Shown here: positions 1 through 7,359 of the stretch, piece after piece
Layout: each line of letters opens with the position of its first letter
Numbering within the stretch: position 1 is the stretch's first letter
Origin: a virus
Lineage: Duplodnaviria; Heunggongvirae; Uroviricota; Caudoviricetes
Direction: 5' to 3' (one strand)
IMG/VR virus record: IMGVR_UViG_2531839179_000014
DNA: 9,294 nt
The notes under the pieces: model-generated
The model's input: the letters and a program-made list of their open reading frames with translations, nothing else
What the model was told of the DNA's origin: nothing
The model's database searches: none
Position numbers and translations under genes: made by a program

Positions 1-875
1 ATGGCGAGTAAACCGGCTGATAAATGACCCTGAACTTCGGGTTCTCCTTCAGCCAGCTCTGTGTTTCCCGGCTTTTGTGGATAATGTAGTTGTCCACGAT
101 CAGCGTGATGGTTTTCGCCCGACGGTATGTCGCTTTAAGCCGCTTCAGCAGGCTGATGAACAGCGCCGAACTTTTGCTGTTGCCGCCCACATAGCTGACT
201 TTACCTGTCCCGCTGTGCAGCGCTCCGGCCAGATAATATTTTTCATTCTGTCCCGGCGTGACCACCCGTTTTTGCTGTCCGCGCAGTTGCCAGTCCGCAC
301 CGATTTTGGGATGAAGATGGATATCCACTTCATCTTCATAAATGACCGGATGCTCTGCGCTGCATTCGTCCAGTGCTTTATGGATTGCTGCCATCTTTTC
401 ATCTTTATGCGGGTCACGGATACGCAGAGTTGGCGCAGCCCTTCGCCACACAATCCCCGCAGACGGCAACCAGCGGCGAACGGTTCCGGCATTTAACTGG
501 CAACCGGTTATCTCATTGATTTTTATTGCCAGCAGTTCTGTACTCCAGCGTGAACGCTGGTAGCCAAAGTCGCCGGGAGAATGTTTTTACCAGCTCACGT
601 AACAGTGTGCAGATATGCTCAAACGGCCAGCGACGGGCACGCCCGGCAGGTAATGATTTCAGTCCCTCAACACCCGACTGCGTGAACCAGTTAATCCAGC
701 GTCCAACAGAGGAACGGGCGCAGCAGAGCGTTCTGGCAACGTCGCTGACACGGTCGCCCCGGTGCAGCATCAGCATGGCAGTCAGTCTGCGGGCATAATT
801 TTTATCATGTGTTTTATGGATGGCTTTCTGCATCAGGCGTCGTTCGTCACGGGAAATTGGTGCTATGATCGGCAT
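1..875 (-). pseudogene. IS630-family DDE transposase, N-terminal HTH part (513-875) and catalytic part (1-586) in different frames
   Basis: Minus-strand translation of 1-586 gives ...RWSTELLAIKINEITGCQLNAGTVRRWL...VIYEDEVDIHLHPKIGADWQLRGQQKRVVTPGQNEKYYLAGALHSGTGKVSYV...TLIVDNYIIHKSRETQSWLKENPKFRVIYQPVYSPW, the characteristic IS630/Tc1 catalytic core. The N-terminal ORF 513-875 (HTH RVSDVARTLCCARSSVGRWINWF) ends in a different frame; frames switch at the T5 run at 584-588. The listed ORF 145-492(-) is an out-of-frame artefact. Confidence 0.75.
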
Positions 876-975
876 TGCTCAGTCCGGTTGGTGATTTGTT
901 TTGATTTGGCGATTGATCAGATCGCACAATCCGGGCTAAGTTCCCTCAAAGTGATCTACTATTCCGCGCAGCTAT
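1..975 (-). mobile_element. IS630/Tc1-mariner-family insertion sequence, partial (runs off the window start); right boundary approximate
   Basis: Contains the transposase below plus ~100 bp of 5' leader (876-975). The boundary with IS30-derived sequence lies near 960-980 at a TTAG/TA junction, consistent with TA-target insertion by this family. Terminal inverted repeat not identified. Confidence 0.6.
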
Positions 976-1231
976 TTAGAATTTACTGTCAGCACCGGCG
1001 TTAAAGTTTACTTCTGCGATCCTCAGAGTCCTTGGCAGCGGGGAACAAATGAGAACACAAATGGGCTAATTCGGCAGTACTTTCCTAAAAAGACATGTCT
1101 TGCCCAATATACTCAACATGAACTAGATCTGGTTGCTGCTCAGCTAAACAACAGACCGAGAAAGACACTGAAGTTCAAAACACCGAAAGAGATAATTGAA
1201 AGGGGTGTTGCATTGACAGATTGAATCTACA
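965..1231 (+). mobile_element. IS30 3' remnant including the right terminus
   Basis: Transposase stop at 1222-1224 is followed by TTGAATCTACA ending at 1231, the reverse complement of the IS30 terminal TGTAGATTCAA. The 5' ~1 kb of IS30 is absent. Confidence 0.8.
979..1224 (+). pseudogene. insI: IS30 transposase C-terminal fragment (last ~80 codons)
   Basis: Translation EFTVSTGVKVYFCDPQSPWQRGTNENTNGLIRQYFPKKTCLAQYTQHELDLVAAQLNNRPRKTLKFKTPKEIIERGVALTD* matches the C-terminus of IS30 InsI as recalled. There is no start codon or N-terminal part; sequence upstream of ~975 is unrelated. Confidence 0.85.
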
Positions 1232-2127
1232 ACAGCGTATTTTGCACAGGAGTCGCTGAAAAATACGCGTTAATCGAACAATGGCGACAACAATTTCCCA
1301 TTGAAGCGATGTGTCAGGTATTTGGTGTATCCAGGAGCGGTTATTACAACTGGGTACAGCATGAACCCTCAGACAGAAAACAAAGTGATGAGCGGCTAAA
1401 ACTGGAGATTAAGGTGGCACATATCCGCACTCGCGAAACATATGGAACCCGGCGGCTCCAGACGGAGCTGGCAGAGAATGGCATCATCGTTGGTCGTGAC
1501 CGACTGGCACGTCTTCGTAAGGAGCTAAGGCTACGCTGTAAGCAGAAACGCAAGTTCAGAGCGACTACGAACCCGAACCACAATCTGCCAGTTGCGCCAA
1601 ATCTGTTGAACCAGACGTTCGCTCCTACAGCACCAAATCAGGTCTGGGTGGCGGACCTGACGTATGTTGCCACACAGGAGGGATGGTTGTACCTCGCTGG
1701 CATCAAAGATGTTTATACGTGCGAAATTGTCGGCTACGCCATGGGAGAGCGCATGACAAAAGAGCTGACAGGTAAAGCCCTGTTTATGGCGCTCAGGAGC
1801 CAGCGCCCACCTGCCGGGCTAATCCACCACTCTGATCGAGGTTCACAGTACTGCGCATACGATTACCGGGTCATACAGGAGCAGTTTGGTCTGAAAACAT
1901 CAATGTCGCGTAAAGGTAACTGTTACGACAACGCTCCGATGGAAAGCTTCTGGGGAACGCTGAAAAATGAGAGCCTGAGCCACTATCGTTTTAATAACCG
2001 GGATGAAGCCATCTCAGTAATACGGGAATACATTGAGATTTTCTACAATCGTCAGCGTCGTCACTCTCGTCTGGGGAATATCTCCCCGGCAGCCTTCAGG
2101 GAAAAATATCATCAGATGGCTGCTTAA
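1232..2127 (+). pseudogene. IS3-family OrfB (DDE integrase-core transposase), 5'-truncated by the IS30 insertion
   Basis: Reading frame is open from the IS30 stop through ORF 1309-2127. Motifs WVADLTYV, HSDRGSQY and MSRKGNCYDNAPMESFWGTLKNE (DDE catalytic residues) and a C-terminal YNRQRRHSRLG are present. No orfA upstream. Confidence 0.85.
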
Positions 2128-2303: not shown

Positions 2304-2591
2304 ATGGCTCAGGTCTATTTTGATACACTGAAGTTCGTCGAAACCTTGGAAGCCGCAGGAATGCCGGCAGCTCAGGCGCGCGCTATATCTGCCGCAGTGA
2401 AAGATTCTCACGAAGCCGCAGAAGTCGCCACAAAGCGCGACCTAAATGATGTCAGAACTGAACTAAAAAACGACATTGCAGCCCTTGATGCAAAAATAGA
2501 CAAACTCAGCCTGCAACTGACCGTCAGATTTGGTGGCATGCTCGTCGTTGCTGTTGGCGCACTGACAGCCATCATCAAATTACCTCTTTAA
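2304..2591 (+). CDS. Small coiled-coil protein with C-terminal transmembrane anchor (XhlA-like/DUF1640-like architecture)
   Basis: ORF 2304-2591 with SD AAGGA 6 nt upstream of ATG. N-terminal amphipathic region (DLNDVRTELKNDIAALDAKIDKLSLQL) followed by hydrophobic GGMLVVAVGALTAIIKL. Family assignment is from architecture only. Confidence 0.6.
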   Translation: MAQVYFDTLKFVETLEAAGMPAAQARAISAAVKDSHEAAEVATKRDLNDVRTELKNDIAALDAKIDKLSLQLTVRFGGMLVVAVGALTAIIKLPL

Positions 2592-2595
2592 ATTA

Positions 2596-2614
2596 CCAGC
2601 CCGTTCGGGGCTGG
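2596..2614. terminator. Bidirectional hairpin between convergent genes
   Basis: CCAGCCC-GTTCG-GGGCTGG (7-bp GC-rich stem) lies 5 bp after the + gene stop (2591) and 6 bp after the minus-strand peptide stop (2621). Flanking T/A tracts are short (TTTACC on +, TAATTTAAA on -), so intrinsic termination strength is uncertain. Confidence 0.5.
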
Positions 2615-2620
2615 TTTACC

Positions 2621-2704
2621 TTACCCCCAGCGGCAAATCGAATACACAACCAGCGCCACCGCCATTGCAATTCCTACCGTGGTGAATGCTTCAGGCCAGG
2701 TCAT
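2621..2704 (-). CDS. 27-aa hydrophobic peptide MTWPEAFTTVGIAMAVALVVYSICRWG (not in the supplied ORF track)
   Basis: ATG overlaps the stop of the upstream gene (ATGA at 2701-2704). SD GGAGGA lies 9 nt upstream. Single predicted transmembrane helix; ends 6 bp before the hairpin. Confidence 0.4.
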   Translation of the reverse strand: MTWPEAFTTVGIAMAVALVVYSICRWG

Positions 2705-3218
2705 CGTAAAACATCCTCCACGCTTATCAGTCCATTTCGCTTCAGGTAATCCATCGCCTTCTCCGGTAATTTGCAGTCAGGCTTAGCTTTTTTCAGTTGA
2801 CTGACCAGTCGTTTAACCCACATTGTTAATTCGCTAACCTGATTACTGGATGCTAGTAGGTTGTCGGCTTTACCCAGAATGACAGCACAGCAAGCCTCTT
2901 TGAGTACCCAGTCAACAGCGTCTTTCCATGCTCCTGTTTCGACTGGTGGATTCTCACGCTTTACCTGTTCATAAAAGCGCACGGCTTTAACCAGTCCTTC
3001 TGATGTCACCTGGACTGGCGGGGCAGTGAATAAGGCCTGAATTTCATAGTTCGGCCTGTCGTTACAATCCTCTTTTTTCGGTACATATTTCCAGTCACCA
3101 GACCACCACTTCCCCTGAAAGTCCGTAACGCCTTTTTTTTCACGTAGCGATATCGCCATGCCACTGTTTTTGCTTGCCCCGCCGTTTCATGCCCTTCCTG
3201 ATAATTAATCTCGCTCAT
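2701..3218 (-). CDS. Hypothetical protein (~175 aa if fused), interrupted by a frameshift at the T8/A8 run at 3133-3140
   Basis: ORF 3006-3218 (MSEINYQEGHETAGQAKTVAWRYRYVKKK...) starts by ATGA overlap with the upstream gene and has a GGGG SD. ORF 2701-3159 (..KGVTDFQGKWWSGDWKYVPKK...ISVEDVLR) continues in the -1 frame from the A8 run. One extra A would give a single ORF. No family recognised. Confidence 0.55.
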
Positions 3219-3391
3219 TCATCGCCCCACTCATCACAATATGCTTCGACCGGAGTTTTTCCTGCTTCATAATCATCACGCCATGCTTCAGCATCAGCAG
3301 CACTGCCACCACGTAACTCTGCATAGTCCATTAACAGTTCATGCCATTCTTCAAAACTGACGTTGTATTTAGTTGAACCAAAATCAGCCAT
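3215..3391 (-). CDS. 58-aa acidic protein MADFGSTKYNVSFEEWHELLMDYAELRGGSAADAEAWRDDYEAGKTPVEAYCDEWGDE (not in the supplied ORF track)
   Basis: ATG at 3391-3389 overlaps the stop of the upstream gene (ATGGCTGA) and its stop overlaps the next start (ATGA). Open frame with enterobacterial codon usage; D/E rich. Confidence 0.5.
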   Translation of the reverse strand: MADFGSTKYNVSFEEWHELLMDYAELRGGSAADAEAWRDDYEAGKTPVEAYCDEWGDE

Positions 3392-3566
3392 TTTGTTCTT
3401 CCTCTTCGTCTTTTATTTCGTGATATGAGTAATTGCAGTAGTTAAAGAAAATATCTTTTGCTTCGTCATGTATTTCATCAGGCGTCGCATCATCATCCAC
3501 TTCGAATTCATCCTCGAAATCTCCACCGGCTATTCCCGTTTCAATAATAATTTTGAACTTTCGCAT
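3384..3566 (-). CDS. 60-aa highly acidic protein MRKFKIIIETGIAGGDFEDEFEVDDDATPDEIHDEAKDIFFNYCNYSYHEIKDEEEEQNG
   Basis: Part of listed ORF 3384-3602. I place the start at the internal ATG (3566) because the upstream 36 nt run into the IS10-like terminal repeat. About one third of residues are D/E. First gene of a four-gene coupled series. Confidence 0.55.
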   Translation of the reverse strand: MRKFKIIIETGIAGGDFEDEFEVDDDATPDEIHDEAKDIFFNYCNYSYHEIKDEEEEQNG

Positions 3567-3577
3567 TTCACTACCGC

Positions 3578-3587
3578 CCTTTCGGGC
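3578..3587. repeat. Left copy of the direct repeat CCTTTCGGGC flanking the IS10-like element (target-site duplication)
   Basis: The identical 10-mer occurs at 4890-4899 immediately outside the other terminus. IS10-group elements make 9-bp duplications. Confidence 0.75.
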
Positions 3588-4889
3588 CTGAGGGATCCCC
3601 ACAAAATTACTGCTAATAAACCAACACCATATTTCGGTAGGTTCTGGACAGATGGTTTAGAACTGTGCTCAGTACTGTTCGTCTTAAAATAAGTGGCGAG
3701 TGTCGAAGAACATTCTTCGCTAACGTCAGATATGAGATAACCCGCCGGGATTTAATGCTGTTAGCCTGATATTTCAGGTGTAACCCTTTATTTTCAGCGT
3801 GATAACCGAGTAACCACATTACGATAGTGCTCAACGTTGCCAGCAGACTCAGAACCAGAATTCTTCCTGTTGAACGACTTTTGCTGGCCCGAAGACCAAA
3901 TCCGAAGCGCCCGTTCTTTTCATCACGAAAGTTTTGCTCTATCTGCATTCGCCGACTGTATAACTTGATGATTTCTCGCGCTCTGAAGTCATTTGTACTG
4001 CTGAAGATCAACCAGGCTTCTTTTGCTGATTTGCTCTGTTCTTTGTCTGTTTTGTTTAAACCACTCTGACCTTTCGAACGTTTCTTTTTTCGCCCTTTTG
4101 CCGATTTCTTATAGGTGTAAAAATGCCCCCGGATGCTTTTTTTCCTTTCTTTAACCAGCCTTCCAGCCCCCATATATTCCGGTGTTTTACATTCAGGGCT
4201 ATCCGACACTTTTTAACCATCTTTCAGGCGCGTTATCGAGGCAATACTGAACGTTATTTCTGATCCGACCAATAAAATCCCAGCCCAGAGAAGTAATATG
4301 GTGAAACCATGCGCTCTGAAATCCAGCATCCGTGACAATAATAACCCTGGCATCGGGGGGCAGGGATTGAGCAAGGGAATCAAGGAAATCATGTTGTATC
4401 AATGGATTATTTTGTTTTTCAGAAGGAACAACCTTACTCAATAACGGAATGGAACGCCCGTCACACAGAAGGCTGGCACGAAGAACATGATGCTCCTGGG
4501 AGGGATAGCCACTCCAGTCTACGGCTATTACACATAAAGATAACTGCCGTGTCAGCATTGAAGTGATATTCCTGAAAATCATTGGAATATCGCGATGGAG
4601 CGCCTCATTACCCATGAGGCGATCAATACGTTTGCTCTTATTCTTAACTTGTGCATTACCCGGCAAAAAACGTCCGATACTGGTCAGCGTCAGAGATGCT
4701 CCGTTGATTAACACCACTGTGGCATCCATCAGGGCATTTTGTCGGTACTGATGAAATGGTGCTAAGGCATCCCGGAAGAAATTCTGACATACTTTATGAA
4801 CAGGCATAGCAGTGATCTCATTGAATTGTTGGCACAAATCAGTAGATCACATAATGCTATGTCTGTCTCGTTTTCTGGGAATTCCTCAG
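3588..4889 (-). mobile_element. IS10-like insertion sequence (IS4 family), ~1.3 kb, apparently complete
   Basis: Left end CTGAGGGATCCCCACAAAATTACTG (3588-3612) resembles the IS10 inside end as recalled; right end read on minus from 4889 is CTGAGGAATTCCCAGAAAACGAGAC. The two ends match at 17 of 22 positions. GATC sites sit in the left terminus (3594-3597) and near the transposase start (4814-4817, 4845-4848). Confidence 0.85.
3613..4837 (-). pseudogene. IS10-like transposase, split by a frameshift near the A5/T5 run at 4210-4214
   Basis: N-part (ORF 4199-4837) has KRIDRLMGNEALH, IAVDWSGY, VLRASLLCDGRSIP, VIIVTDAGFQSAWF, LGW. C-part (ORF 3613-4209) has the IS4-family YREK signature YSRRMQIEQNFRDEK. 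Both are collinear with IS10 transposase as recalled. The start may be TTG at 4837 or ATG at 4807. Confidence 0.8.
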
Positions 4890-4899
4890 CCTTTCGGGC
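4890..4899. repeat. Right copy of the direct repeat CCTTTCGGGC flanking the IS10-like element
   Basis: See left copy at 3578-3587. Confidence 0.75.
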
Positions 4900-4971
4900 G
4901 GCCTCCTGATGATTTGAGGGTGCAGGAATCCCTCCGGTTAAGGATTAAATTTTTAACAGTGCTAAATTTAA

Positions 4972-5822: not shown

Positions 5823-6569
5823 CTACTTAACAACCCTCGAATGGCTAACATCCGGACGCCAGCTCTCCCAGTTAAAATTCACCCAGCGCCCGCCGTTCAT
5901 GACCATGCGATCCATCACCCGCTCGCCGAGCAATGTTTTCATCACCTCATAGTTCAGGTTTGTCAGCATCCCCACGCTGCGCATCGACGCTGTCCGGCGA
6001 TCAACAATCTGGTGCAGCACCACCTGCTCGTTTTTCGTCTCGCGCTGAATGCCAATTTCATCAAGAACCAGCAGATCCACTTCGCACAGCTCCCGCAAAA
6101 ATTTTTCGCCTGACTGCCCGTCGTCATAGCTGGCGTGCAGGGCGCTCATAACATCAGCCACGGTAACCACAATCACTGTCTGACCGTCTTTCAGCAGGCG
6201 ATTCCCGATAGCTGCCGCTAAGTGATTCTTCCCGGTACCAGGTTTTCCGCTGAACGCAAAATTTGTACACCCGGTCATCAGTTCATCGGCGATGGATTTC
6301 GCCTGGCTTAACGCGTATCGCTGGCCGTCGTTCTGCACCTGGTAATTCGCAAACGAGCATTTACGGTGCAACGGCTGGATGCCTGAGCGATTCAGAATTT
6401 TTTCCACCCGCAACTGGCGATTCAGGCGGTTGATCTCCTCGCTACGTTTCTGGCCTTCAGCAAGTTGCCACTCGCGCCACTCCGCTACCGTTCTGAATGG
6501 GGCGGTTACATGTGGCGGGGTCAGTCGGCGGATGCGTTCCAGAACGCCGCCTGTCGCAATATTTTTCAT
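5823..6569 (-). CDS. DnaC/IstB-like AAA+ helicase loader (phage replication protein)
   Basis: Walker A GKPGTGKNHLAAAIG and Walker B LLVLDEIG are present. Sits immediately downstream of the O-like gene, as in lambdoid and Rac-type replication modules. Confidence 0.85.
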   Translation of the reverse strand: MKNIATGGVLERIRRLTPPHVTAPFRTVAEWREWQLAEGQKRSEEINRLNRQLRVEKILNRSGIQPLHRKCSFANYQVQNDGQRYALSQAKSIADELMTGCTNFAFSGKPGTGKNHLAAAIGNRLLKDGQTVIVVTVADVMSALHASYDDGQSGEKFLRELCEVDLLVLDEIGIQRETKNEQVVLHQIVDRRTASMRSVGMLTNLNYEVMKTLLGERVMDRMVMNGGRWVNFNWESWRPDVSHSRVVK

Positions 6570-6575
6570 GGTCCG

Positions 6576-7359
6576 TTACCCCCTGAAGCCTGGCGGGATC
6601 GCACTGTCCGGCAACGAGACGGTGTTAACCTGTCGGAGCAACGTCTCAGGCCGAACACCTTTCGGCGCGAACAGGCCCTGGTATTCATTGGCGATGCTGT
6701 GTCGAATCACCTGCTCAGGTGTAAAACCCTGCTGACGGAATTTTTCCAGTTCCCGTATCGCCCCGTTAGCGCCCTGCTCCGTTCGAATCGGTTTTCGCAA
6801 TGCCTGTCTGAACCGGACCCACTCATGCCAGAGTGTTTCCGGCAACCAATCGGGCAGCTCAATAGCCTCCGGCTCGAATTTTTTAGACGCTCGTTTTTGG
6901 CGAGGGGGATTTAGGGGGAGATCTGTATTTAGATCTTCCTCTTCCTCTGGTAACGCTTTTTGATCCGTTTGTGTAACGCTGGCAGCGTTACCTTTTCGTT
7001 TCAGTTCGCGTATTTTTGTTACTCGCTCGTTTGTAACCGCCCGTTTTTTTAGAGCTTTTTCCGTTATGACGTTCAAAGTTAGGTAGAGAAAGCCCACCGT
7101 CATTTTCGACCAGCCATCCAACCTGAATTAACGCATCAGCAAAACCAGACATAAAAGTGATGCGATCTATTGCACTTTTTGTAACGCCGCGAGCGTTACA
7201 ATCTGCATTACCGTCTATCATTTGTTGATCCGCCCATGCCCAGAAGCGAATAACCTTCCCTAATGCGGCATCTGGATCAATATTCAGAATCTCAGCAAGC
7301 CTGAATATTTCCGGCTTATCCGGCGTAATAACCTCGAGCTTTATCCAGTTTGAAGCCAT
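6576..7359 (-). CDS. Replication initiator/replisome organizer (lambda O-like, YdaU-like), interrupted by a frameshift at the T7/A7 run at 7044-7050
   Basis: N-part ORF 6988-7359 (MASNWIKLEVITPDKPEIFRLAEIL...LPNFERHNGKSSKK) and C-part ORF 6576-7121 (...RAVTNERVTKIRELKRKG...LPDWLPETLWHEWVRFRQALRKP...) overlap at 6988-7121 in different frames. Removing one A from the A7 run fuses them into ~260 aa. Position is between the YdaT-like and DnaC-like genes. Confidence 0.6.
6972..6992. repeat. 21-bp palindrome, copy 3 (GTAACGCT-ggc-AGCGTTAC), inside the O-like coding region
   Basis: Perfect 8-bp arms. It is one of three related palindromes in this region. Confidence 0.7.
7180..7200. repeat. 21-bp palindrome, copy 2 (TGTAACGC-cgcga-GCGTTACA), inside the O-like coding region
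   Basis: Perfect 8-bp arms; differs at one base from copy 1. Confidence 0.7.

What the first reader, a model, noticed from the sequence alone, without database searches (positions are those of the whole stretch)
2621..3566. Translationally coupled four-gene cassette of very small proteins next to the prophage replication module
Four minus-strand genes are linked by overlapping stop/start codons (ATGGCTGA at 3384-3391, ATGA at 3215-3218 and 2701-2704): a 60-aa protein with about one third D/E, a 58-aa acidic protein, a ~175-aa protein with no recognisable motif, and a 27-aa single-helix peptide. They sit where lambdoid phages carry nin-region or moron cargo, and an IS10-like element has inserted 21 bp upstream of the first gene. 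Small, very acidic phage proteins are often DNA mimics or anti-defence factors, and a short membrane peptide at the end of an operon is a common toxin or effector layout. I cannot assign any of the four to a known family, so this is my best candidate for an undescribed accessory system; function is entirely inferred.
Basis: partly seen in the sequence, partly recalled or inferred. Interest (0 to 1): 0.6.

Follow-up and report, generated by a model that had tools for sequence, protein, structure and literature searches.

The report
Ordinary mosaic prophage early genes, decayed
The four overlapping small genes are real, but they are independently shuffled, function-unknown early genes common in E. 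coli/Shigella lambdoid prophages, and in this Shigella-type remnant the block is cut off by an insertion sequence and its largest gene is frameshifted, so it is not a new four-gene system.

Summary
The described layout is present at the stated coordinates, with the stated overlaps. However, the "~175-aa protein" is two ORFs (70 and 152 aa). An A8 run at 3133-3140, where intact relatives have A6, splits a 171-aa gene.

- g1 (60 aa) is Pfam DUF7167.
- g2 (58 aa) belongs to a small-protein family found in about 200 phage records.
- g3 is a three-module mosaic protein of the Ead/Ea22/DUF551 shuffling class.
- g4 (27 aa) is a conserved membrane microprotein under purifying selection. PGAP left it unannotated in the three E. 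coli loci I inspected.

The four do not travel as a unit. Among 5426 complete E. coli genomes, g1+g2 occur in 1750, g4 in 399, and at least 80% of the block in 303. Recombination breakpoints fall at gene and module borders. Stop/start overlaps are the norm throughout these operons.

In this window a 1302-bp ISSfl1-family IS splits the hairpin and Shine-Dalgarno element that precedes g1. The surrounding prophage is riddled with IS elements.

No hit to defence models, solved structures or characterised nin proteins was found. g1's predicted fold only marginally resembles small phage inhibitors such as T7 Gp2.

Verdict: a common prophage segment of unknown function, not a novel system. Low interest.

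The parts
3384..3566 (-). g1: 60-aa, very acidic (net charge -15) DUF7167 protein with a predicted beta-beta-alpha-beta fold and an acidic tail
   Evidence: ORF and translation. Pfam PF23768 at E=7.9e-15 and phrog_1997 at E=9e-31. AlphaFold2 model with pLDDT 79.7. pN/pS 0.09.
3215..3391 (-). g2: 58-aa acidic helical protein. Its start overlaps the g1 stop by 8 nt (ATGGCTGA).
   Evidence: phrog_519 at E=4.5e-23, matching the C-terminal part of the profile. No Pfam or NCBIfam hit. tblastn relatives in 202 phage records, including Ackermannviridae. pN/pS 0.11.
2701..3218 (-). g3: frameshifted pseudogene of a 171-aa, three-module mosaic protein of the Ea22/DUF551 shuffling class. The window ORFs are 3218..3006 (70 aa) and 3159..2701 (152 aa).
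   Evidence: Alignment to the intact THO-006 gene and reconstruction. phrog_660 at E=1.2e-72. The modules occur separately in 443 representative proteins and co-occur with PF13935 and PF04448. The AF2 model shows three modules. The 152-aa product is identical to P0032, found in Shigella genomes.
3133..3140 (-). A8 homopolymer: the +2 frameshift site in g3. It creates an in-frame A_AAA_AAG heptamer.
   Evidence: Distribution of A6, A7 and A8 alleles in related loci. No downstream stimulatory structure.
2621..2704 (-). g4: 27-aa single-pass membrane microprotein (MTWPEAFTTVGIAMAVALVVYSICRWG). The ATGA overlaps the g3 stop, and a GGAGGA Shine-Dalgarno sequence lies upstream.
   Evidence: An intact 27-codon ORF in 64 of 68 phage-contig matches, following different upstream genes. 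pN/pS 0.25-0.45 between divergent alleles. Only rarely annotated.
2597..2617 (.). 8-bp GC-rich hairpin between g4 and the convergent 95-aa gene. It is a likely bidirectional terminator that closes the block.
   Evidence: Folds of -15.6 and -16.4 kcal/mol, with z=-3.8 on the + strand. Homology to E. coli loci ends here.
3567..3587 (-). Residual 21-nt leader of g1: the 3' arm of the original hairpin plus the duplicated target. The Shine-Dalgarno sequence is no longer attached.
   Evidence: The residual fold is weak, with z=-0.46.
3588..4889 (-). 1302-bp IS4-family (ISSfl1-family) insertion sequence. Its transposase is split into two ORFs (4837..4199 and 4209..3613). It is flanked by a 10-nt direct repeat, GCCCGAAAGG, at 3578-3587 and 4890-4899.
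   Evidence: Repeats and termini. 99.6% identity over the full length to an annotated ISSfl1-family element. ORFs.
4890..4971 (-). Displaced upstream half of the g1 leader: the intergenic spacer, the AGGAGG Shine-Dalgarno sequence (4902-4907) and the 5' arm of the hairpin. It now lies 1.3 kb from g1.
   Evidence: compared with intact loci.

Best explanation
The block is a stretch of the delayed-early operon of a Qin/Rac-type lambdoid prophage. It consists of independent, horizontally shuffled accessory genes, not a co-adapted system.

In intact relatives the order is: replication genes, several small ORFs, g1, g2, an Ea22-type mosaic gene (g3 or a substitute), sometimes g4, then hok/rem and the Q-like antiterminator. 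I infer that g1 is translated from an AGGAGG Shine-Dalgarno sequence that a 6-7 bp GAAA hairpin brings to about 7 nt from the AUG. I also infer that the downstream genes are read by coupled termination and re-initiation at ATGGCTGA and ATGA overlaps, as is usual in these operons.

- g1 and g2 are strongly constrained, small, acidic soluble proteins. They most likely bind and modulate a host or phage protein (inferred).
- g3 is a modular adaptor of the Ea22/DUF551 shuffling class. By analogy with lambda Ea22 it may influence the lysis-lysogeny balance (weak inference).
- g4 is a 27-aa membrane microprotein with unknown partners.

In this window the block is a decaying remnant. An ISSfl1-family IS split the hairpin and removed the Shine-Dalgarno sequence and the operon promoter from g1. 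g3 carries a lineage-fixed +2 frameshift. The surrounding prophage is interrupted by further IS elements. Expression and function here are probably lost or residual.
For: - Position and synteny.
- The block (2617-3587) matches E. coli prophages at about 95% identity, and homology ends exactly at the hairpin before g1 and just after the g4 stop.
- Prevalence differs between parts: g1+g2 in 1750, g4 in 399, and at least 80% of the block in 303 of 5426 complete E. coli genomes. Breakpoints lie at the g3 stop and at module borders.
- The third gene varies after g1+g2: a 171-aa form, 104-aa, 119-aa and 129-aa forms, and 211- and 239-aa Ea22-like forms.
- g3 modules occur separately. They co-occur with Ead_Ea22 in 13 of 130 proteins and with DUF551 in 5 of 130. 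The AF2 model shows three separate modules.
- Ea22 genes are described as mosaic, with a common N-terminus and swappable C-terminal domains that include DUF551 (PMC10834534). g3 shares the MSEI(N/D)YQ start with an Ea22-like protein.
- g4 is absent after g3 in more than 36 loci, yet present after DUF551 genes elsewhere.
- Purifying selection acts on all four genes.
- IS anatomy and the displaced Shine-Dalgarno sequence and hairpin.
- The frameshift is shared by at least four complete Shigella chromosomes.
- 4- and 8-nt overlaps are common in neighbouring genes.
Against: - g1 and g2 are adjacent with the same 8-nt overlap in 78-80 of 80 g1-anchored phage contigs, so those two could be a functional pair. 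These copies are nearly identical DNA, so the linkage is weak evidence either way.
- No function is demonstrated for any of the four proteins, so a shared function cannot be excluded.
- Read-through from the IS transposase gene, which is on the same strand, could still transcribe the block. g2 and g4 keep their own Shine-Dalgarno sequences.
Confidence: 0.8

Rival explanations
1. One reading: the four genes form one undescribed accessory system. Acidic DNA-mimic or anti-defence proteins would be combined with a terminal membrane toxin or effector.
For: Tight overlaps. g1 and g2 have net charges of -15 and -12. g4 is a conserved transmembrane peptide. The location is in an accessory region. Small phage inhibitors (T7 Gp2, Dmd, several Acr proteins) appear among the marginal fold matches of g1.
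Confidence: 0.05
2. g1 and g2 alone form a two-protein functional unit, for example an inhibitor plus a partner or chaperone. g3 and g4 would be unrelated neighbours.
For: g2 follows g1 with the same 8-nt overlap in 78-80 of 80 g1-anchored contigs. The pair is kept when it moves to the exo-xis-like side of Stx phages. Both are under strong purifying selection. The pair is present in 1750 of 5426 E. coli genomes.
Against: The linkage is seen only among near-identical DNA copies. In Klebsiella phage ST512-KPC3phi13.3 the g1 homologue is followed by an unrelated Cys-rich protein. g2 relatives occur in about 200 phages, most of which have no g1 relative.
Confidence: 0.2
3. The A8 allele of g3 is not dead. 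A -1 ribosomal slip on the in-frame A_AAA_AAG heptamer (the dnaX motif), or transcriptional slippage, would yield a 70-aa product and a 172-aa product, making this a recoded gene.
For: With A8 the zero frame reads GTG AAA AAA AAG GCG, and a -1 slip restores the full frame. A8 is more frequent than A7 among relatives and occurs on two downstream backgrounds. The downstream frame is intact in the window. A_AA.A_AA.G is among the most efficient -1 motifs when stimulators are present (PMC4066793).
Against: There is no downstream stimulatory structure (z=-0.08), and I see no clear upstream SD-like element. Without stimulators, motifs give only 2-10 times a background of about 0.05%. Most alleles are A6, so the heptamer is not conserved. 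The heptamer arises automatically from a +2 insertion. Some A8 alleles carry second lesions (L105).
Confidence: 0.06
4. The ORF series is an artefact, made of non-coding or chance ORFs.
For: The ORFs are very short, and PGAP left g4 unannotated in the loci I inspected.
Against: pN/pS is 0.09-0.44. There are Pfam and PHROG matches. ORF length is conserved across divergent alleles. Collinear homologues exist in unrelated virulent phages.
Confidence: 0.02

Closest known systems
Lambda nin region (ren, ninA-ninI) between P and Q
   Same: Same map position between the replication genes and the Q-type antiterminator. Many small, dispensable ORFs joined by overlapping stop and start codons, with mosaic exchange between phages (position; nin properties from general knowledge).
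   Different: None of g1-g4 matches a Pfam or NCBIfam model of a characterised nin protein. The host prophage is Qin/Rac-like, with DicA/DicC-type immunity, YdaT, and hok and rem downstream.
Ea22 and the exo-xis region genes of lambda and Stx phages
   Same: g3 begins MSEINYQ like Ea22-like proteins. It shares modules with proteins that carry PF13935 or DUF551. Its mosaic build matches the description of Ea22 variants (PMC10834534). In Stx phage ArgO145, g1 and g2 lie directly upstream of an Ea22-like gene.
   Different: g3 does not match the Ead_Ea22 model itself and has no relative in the PDB by sequence. No pro-lysogenic effect has been tested. Here the genes sit on the pR side, not the pL side.
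T7 Gp2 and other small acidic phage inhibitor proteins (Dmd, several Acr proteins)
Phage T4 gene 38-type 'split' ribosome-binding sites
   Same: In intact relatives an AGGAGG sequence lies 23 nt from the g1 AUG. A 6-7 bp GAAA hairpin in the spacer would shorten the effective distance to about 7 nt. The T4 precedent is from general knowledge.
   Different: This is untested. Covariation support is minimal: one compensatory pair, with 61 of 500 shuffles scoring as high. In the window the element is destroyed by the IS.
Small membrane microproteins such as KdpF, and type I toxins such as Hok
   Same: g4 is a 27-aa single-helix peptide encoded at the end of a gene string. A hok locus lies a few hundred bases downstream in relatives.
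   Different: There is no HOK_GEF hit. The KdpF and DUF883_C matches fall far below their cut-offs. g4 is translationally coupled to a protein-coding gene and is not paired with an antisense RNA locus.

Membership tests
Pfam DUF7167 (PF23768), for g1 | Full-length match above the gathering score | tested here: met
   55.1 bits against a cut-off of 24.4, E=7.9e-15, covering residues 2-53. PGAP names the E. coli orthologue 'DUF7167 family protein'.
PHROGs 1997, 519 and 660, for g1, g2 and g3 | Significant HMM match | tested here: met
   E=9e-31, 4.5e-23 and 1.2e-72 respectively. All three families have unknown function.
Ead/Ea22-like (PF13935 / IPR025153), for g3 | Match to the N-terminal and coiled-coil signature | tested here: not met
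   No Pfam hit for the intact 171-aa form. The ArgO145 neighbour gp13 scores E=3.5e-39.
Ead/Ea22-like (PF13935 / IPR025153), for g3 | Mosaic build: a shared N-terminal segment with exchangeable C-terminal modules, some shared with DUF551 proteins | tested here: met
   Shared MSEI(N/D)YQ start. Modules are found in PF13935 proteins (13 of 130) and PF04448 proteins (5 of 130). The mosaic build is described in PMC10834534.
Characterised lambda nin proteins (NinB/Orf, NinG/Rap, NinI and others) | Sequence-family match | tested here: not met
   No Pfam or NCBIfam hit for g2, g3 or g4. g1 matches only a DUF.
Known anti-phage defence systems (PADLOC-DB) | Match to any component model | tested here: not met
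   No hits for any of the four proteins at E<=1.
DNA-mimic or anti-restriction proteins (Ocr, ArdA and similar), for g1 and g2 | High negative charge | tested here: met
   Net charges of -15 and -12, both with pI 4.05.
DNA-mimic or anti-restriction proteins (Ocr, ArdA and similar), for g1 and g2 | Sequence or fold relationship to a known mimic, or a DNA-like charge array | tested here: not met
T7 Gp2-type RNA polymerase inhibitor, for g1 | Fold and sequence similarity to Gp2 | tested here: inconclusive
Hok/Gef or other type I toxins, for g4 | Family HMM match | tested here: not met
   No HOK_GEF hit. Only sub-threshold matches to DUF883_C, PTR2 and KdpF.
dnaX-type programmed -1 frameshift, for the g3 A8 allele | In-frame slippery heptamer X_XXY_YYZ | tested here: met
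   A_AAA_AAG lies in the zero frame at 3133-3140 plus the following G.
dnaX-type programmed -1 frameshift, for the g3 A8 allele | Stimulatory downstream structure, and conservation of the site among homologues | tested here: not met
   The downstream fold has z=-0.08. Most homologues have A6 and a single frame.
IS4-family ISSfl1 element | Full-length identity, terminal inverted repeats and a flanking direct repeat | tested here: met
   99.6% identity over 1302 bp to an annotated ISSfl1-family element. CTGAGG(G/A)AT(C/T)CCC termini and a 10-nt direct repeat.

The most novel reading that the evidence does not exclude
g1 (DUF7167), alone or with g2, is a small acidic inhibitor that binds a host nucleic-acid enzyme in the manner of T7 Gp2 or small anti-defence proteins. 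The target could be RNA polymerase, a nuclease or a defence protein. If so, about a third of E. coli genomes would carry it in prophages, and collinear relatives exist in virulent Klebsiella, Enterococcus and E. coli phages. Separately, g4 would define a family of 27-aa prophage membrane microproteins that automated annotation often misses.
Probability: 0.15. Interest if true: 0.55.

Novelty: new member of a known kind. Interest (0 to 1): 0.2.

Why it matters
As it stands, this matters little. It is one more copy, and a disabled one, of a common prophage segment.

The useful outputs are practical:
- The "175-aa" gene is a frameshifted Ea22-class mosaic gene and should not be modelled as a novel protein.
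- Overlapping stops and starts in lambdoid early operons do not indicate a functional system.
- g1 and g2 are strongly constrained, very widespread small acidic proteins with no known function, so they are reasonable entries for anti-defence or host-takeover screens.
- g4 is a conserved microprotein gene that PGAP left unannotated in the loci I inspected.
- The A-run in g3 is a recurrent frameshift site that will confuse annotation of these prophages.

Tried and rejected
- Sequence searches of g1, g2 and g3 against PDB chains gave nothing meaningful. The "AI-designed TIM barrel" hits for g3 reported no matched stretches and are likely compositional noise. A DUF7167 profile gave only E of about 0.03 to ribosomal protein L23.
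- NCBIfam and PADLOC gave nothing.
- DUF5419, an annotator's label on a Morganella phage relative of g2, is not recovered by the current Pfam for that protein or for g2.
- The 121-aa DUF551 proteins clustered with the g4 peptide do not contain it, so that clustering is an artefact.
- The link between g1 and "exonuclease" genes in Klebsiella and Enterococcus phages involves different exonucleases on different sides of g1. I treat it as coincidence or a weak lead.
- Literature searches for DUF7167, for the PHROG numbers and for the peptide strings found nothing on these proteins.
- The species-level genome scan for g1 found only Shigella flexneri, where the block is decayed, and a probably mis-binned MAG contig.
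- The promoter and terminator scan gave no more sites than chance.
Full report
**Observation.** The minus strand of 2621-3566 carries the described string of ORFs.

- g1 runs 3566..3384 and encodes 60 aa. One third of its residues are D or E, and its net charge is -15.
- g2 runs 3391..3215 and encodes 58 aa with a net charge of -12. Its ATG overlaps the g1 stop as ATGGCTGA.
- A third gene starts at 3218 (ATGA).
- g4 runs 2704..2621 and encodes 27 aa. It has an ATGA overlap and a GGAGGA Shine-Dalgarno sequence 9 nt upstream.

The "~175-aa protein" is not one ORF. The window has a 70-aa ORF (3218..3006) and a 152-aa ORF (3159..2701). Alignment to E. coli THO-006 shows A8 at 3133-3140 where the relative has A6. 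Deleting two A residues restores a 171-aa protein that is 92% identical to WP_032290902.1.

The 152-aa product is identical to P0032, named "bacteriophage protein [Shigella dysenteriae]". It is encoded on dozens of contigs, including four complete Shigella chromosomes. The frameshift is therefore real and fixed in that lineage.

**Surroundings.** Upstream on the same strand lie DicA/DicC-type immunity genes, a replication module (a DnaC/IstB-like ATPase at 6569..5823), a DUF977 gene and a 137-aa zinc-ribbon gene.

In intact relatives the same string continues to hok, rem, DUF1367, YbcO and a DUF1133/Q-like antiterminator, followed by lysis genes.

The element 21 bp upstream of g1 is a 1302-bp ISSfl1-family (IS4-family) IS at 3588-4889.
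- It has CTGAGG(G/A)AT(C/T)CCC termini and a 10-nt direct repeat, GCCCGAAAGG.
- Its transposase is itself split into two ORFs.
- IS3-family and IS630-like fragments lie at 513-2127.

**What the IS hit.** In 150 or more related loci g1 is preceded by AGGAGG-CCGCCC-GAAA-GGGCGG-TAGTTAA-ATG. The hairpin is stable: the leader containing it folds at -20.4 kcal/mol (z=-2.6). The hairpin is kept in 96% of cells across 14 variants, with one G-C to A-U compensatory change. Statistical support for covariation is weak.

I infer that the hairpin brings the distant Shine-Dalgarno sequence next to the AUG, as in phage T4 gene 38 (general knowledge). The IS inserted into the loop. The Shine-Dalgarno sequence and the 5' arm are now at 4890-4907, 1.3 kb from g1. 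In this window g1 has therefore lost both the operon promoter and its ribosome-binding element.

**What each protein is.**

g1:
- It is Pfam DUF7167 (55.1 bits against a cut-off of 24.4) and phrog_1997.
- Close relatives are confined to Escherichia and Shigella.
- Full-length collinear relatives at 37-70% identity exist in a temperate Klebsiella phage and in virulent Klebsiella, Enterococcus and E. coli phages.
- The AF2 model (pLDDT 80) is a beta-beta-alpha-beta fold with an acidic tail.
- A profile comparison with Gp2 is negative.

g2:
- It has no Pfam or NCBIfam match.
- It matches the C-terminal half of phrog_519.
- tblastn finds relatives in 202 phage records, mostly Ackermannviridae of Salmonella, Klebsiella and E. 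coli.

g3:
- It matches phrog_660.
- An exhaustive search shows three segments (about 15-66, 60-115 and 108-171) that occur separately in 443 representative proteins.
- These segments are often combined with Ead_Ea22 or DUF551 domains.
- The AF2 model shows the same three modules: a small beta domain and two helical units.
- Its first residues, MSEINYQ, match the Ea22-like start.
- Published work describes Ea22 genes as mosaics with a common N-terminus and exchangeable C-terminal domains that include DUF551 (PMC10834534).
- g3 itself does not match the PF13935 model.

g4:
- It is a discrete 27-codon gene.
- In phage contigs anchored only on WPEAF-coding DNA, 64 of 68 ORFs are exactly 27 codons.
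- Divergent alleles exist, for example MNWPEAFTAVGVAIAVAFILYSLFRWG and MSWPEAFTTVGIVMAAALGLYSICRWW.
- They follow different upstream genes, mostly DUF551 genes ending ...PEPPQEVNQ.
- pN/pS is 0.25-0.45 at pS of about 0.5.
- PGAP left it unannotated in the three E. coli loci I inspected. A few submitters have called it.

**Is it a system?** The evidence says no.

- In 5426 complete E. coli genomes, g1+g2 occur in 1750, g4 in 399, and at least 80% of 2617-3587 in 303.
- Match end-points cluster at the g3 stop and at module borders inside g3.
- After g1+g2, the third gene is the 171-aa form in only about 22 of the 76 loci with a readable third gene. In the other loci it is a different variant, an Ea22-like gene or a truncated form.
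- After g3, g4 is missing in 36 or more loci, with divergence starting right at the stop codon.
- In Stx phage ArgO145, g1 and g2 sit on the exo-xis-like side next to an Ea22-like gene. g4 follows another gene that carries only the g3 C-terminal module.
- In a Klebsiella phage the g1 homologue is followed by an unrelated Cys-rich protein.
- Overlapping stops and starts join most genes in these operons, so coupling is not a mark of a dedicated cassette.

Only the g1-g2 pairing is consistent (78-80 of 80 contigs). It is seen among near-identical DNA copies.

**The frameshift site.** Among g1-anchored loci whose third gene could be read, about 41 have A6, 8 have A7 and about 27 have A8. A8 occurs on at least two downstream backgrounds, and some A8 alleles carry second lesions.

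With A8 the zero frame contains A_AAA_AAG, and a -1 slip would restore the frame. However, there is no stimulatory structure. Unstimulated motifs give only a few-fold over a background of about 0.05% (PMC4066793). I treat the window's g3 as a pseudogene and give a small probability to leaky expression.

**Mechanism, with status.**
- Shown: gene order, overlaps, family memberships, selection, mosaic assortment, the IS insertion and the frameshift.
- Inferred:
  - transcription from pR as part of the delayed-early operon
  - coupled translation
  - the split Shine-Dalgarno hairpin
  - protein-binding roles for g1 and g2
  - an Ea22-like modulatory role for g3
  - membrane insertion of g4
  - silence of the block in this genome

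**Comparison and novelty.** The closest known things are the lambda nin region (position and style) and the mosaic Ea22 genes of the exo-xis region (for g3, and for the g1-g2 neighbourhood in Stx phages). Membership holds for DUF7167 and the PHROGs. It fails for PF13935, DUF551, characterised nin proteins, PADLOC models and Hok.

This is another member of a known kind: lambdoid accessory early genes of unknown function. It is common in E. coli and decayed here. Interest is low. The residual interest lies in g1 and g2 as widespread, constrained, acidic small proteins, and in the often-missed g4 microprotein.

Noticed in passing
window 3133-3140 (minus strand); loci L096-L175: The poly-A run in g3 is a recurrent frameshift site. 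Among the 76 g1-anchored phage contigs with a readable third gene, about 41 have A6, 8 have A7 and about 27 have A8, and A8 occurs on two different downstream backgrounds. A8 creates an in-frame A_AAA_AAG heptamer, so a -1 slip would restore the frame.
   Followed up: partly
window 2621-2704; L086 1501-1584; L087 1501-1578; L176-L254: The 27-aa peptide defines a conserved microprotein family, M[TSN]WPEAF..VG....A.......YS[IL][CF]RW[GWR]. It usually follows DUF551 or Ea22-class genes with an ATGA overlap. It occurs in 399 of 5426 E. coli genomes, with 100 places on plasmids, and RefSeq left it unannotated in the three loci I inspected.
   Followed up: yes
window 3567-3587 and 4890-4910; L001 6945-7000: In intact loci the g1 leader has an AGGAGG sequence 23 nt from the AUG, with a GAAA-loop hairpin in between. 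This is a candidate split Shine-Dalgarno arrangement. The IS inserted into the hairpin loop.
   Followed up: partly
window 2304-2591 (+ strand): A 95-aa gene convergent with g4 has a weak DUF1640/CCDC90-like N-terminus, a coiled coil and a C-terminal hydrophobic helix. A strong hairpin at 2597-2617 follows it. The same gene sits next to g4 in four Shigella chromosomes but not in E. coli THO-006, so it looks like a moron-type insertion.
   Followed up: partly
window 3613-4837: The ISSfl1-family transposase is split into two overlapping ORFs (212 and 198 aa). The element differs by 1 nt in length from a 99.6% identical E. coli copy, so this IS copy is probably defective.
   Followed up: partly
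window 6576-7359: The replication-initiator-like region upstream of the DnaC-like gene consists of two overlapping ORFs in different frames (6988..7359 and 6576..7121). It may be another frameshifted gene.
   Followed up: no
window 513-2127: An IS630-like transposase N-terminal fragment (875..513) and an IS3-family orfB (1309..2127) replace the region that carries ORF6N, hok, rem and Q-like genes in related Shigella loci. The prophage late side is truncated here.
   Followed up: partly
L002 (PP818812.1, 'Actinobacillus phage vB_Apl-pPE4'): This record, deposited as an Actinobacillus pleuropneumoniae phage, carries g1, g2 and g4, ydaT, hok and replication genes at 91-100% identity to E. coli lambdoid prophages. 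Its host assignment looks doubtful.
   Followed up: no
L094 (JAIHTM010000290.1, 'MAG: Collinsella sp.'): A 3-kb contig binned to Collinsella encodes g1 at 98% identity. It is most likely a mis-binned E. coli phage fragment.
   Followed up: no
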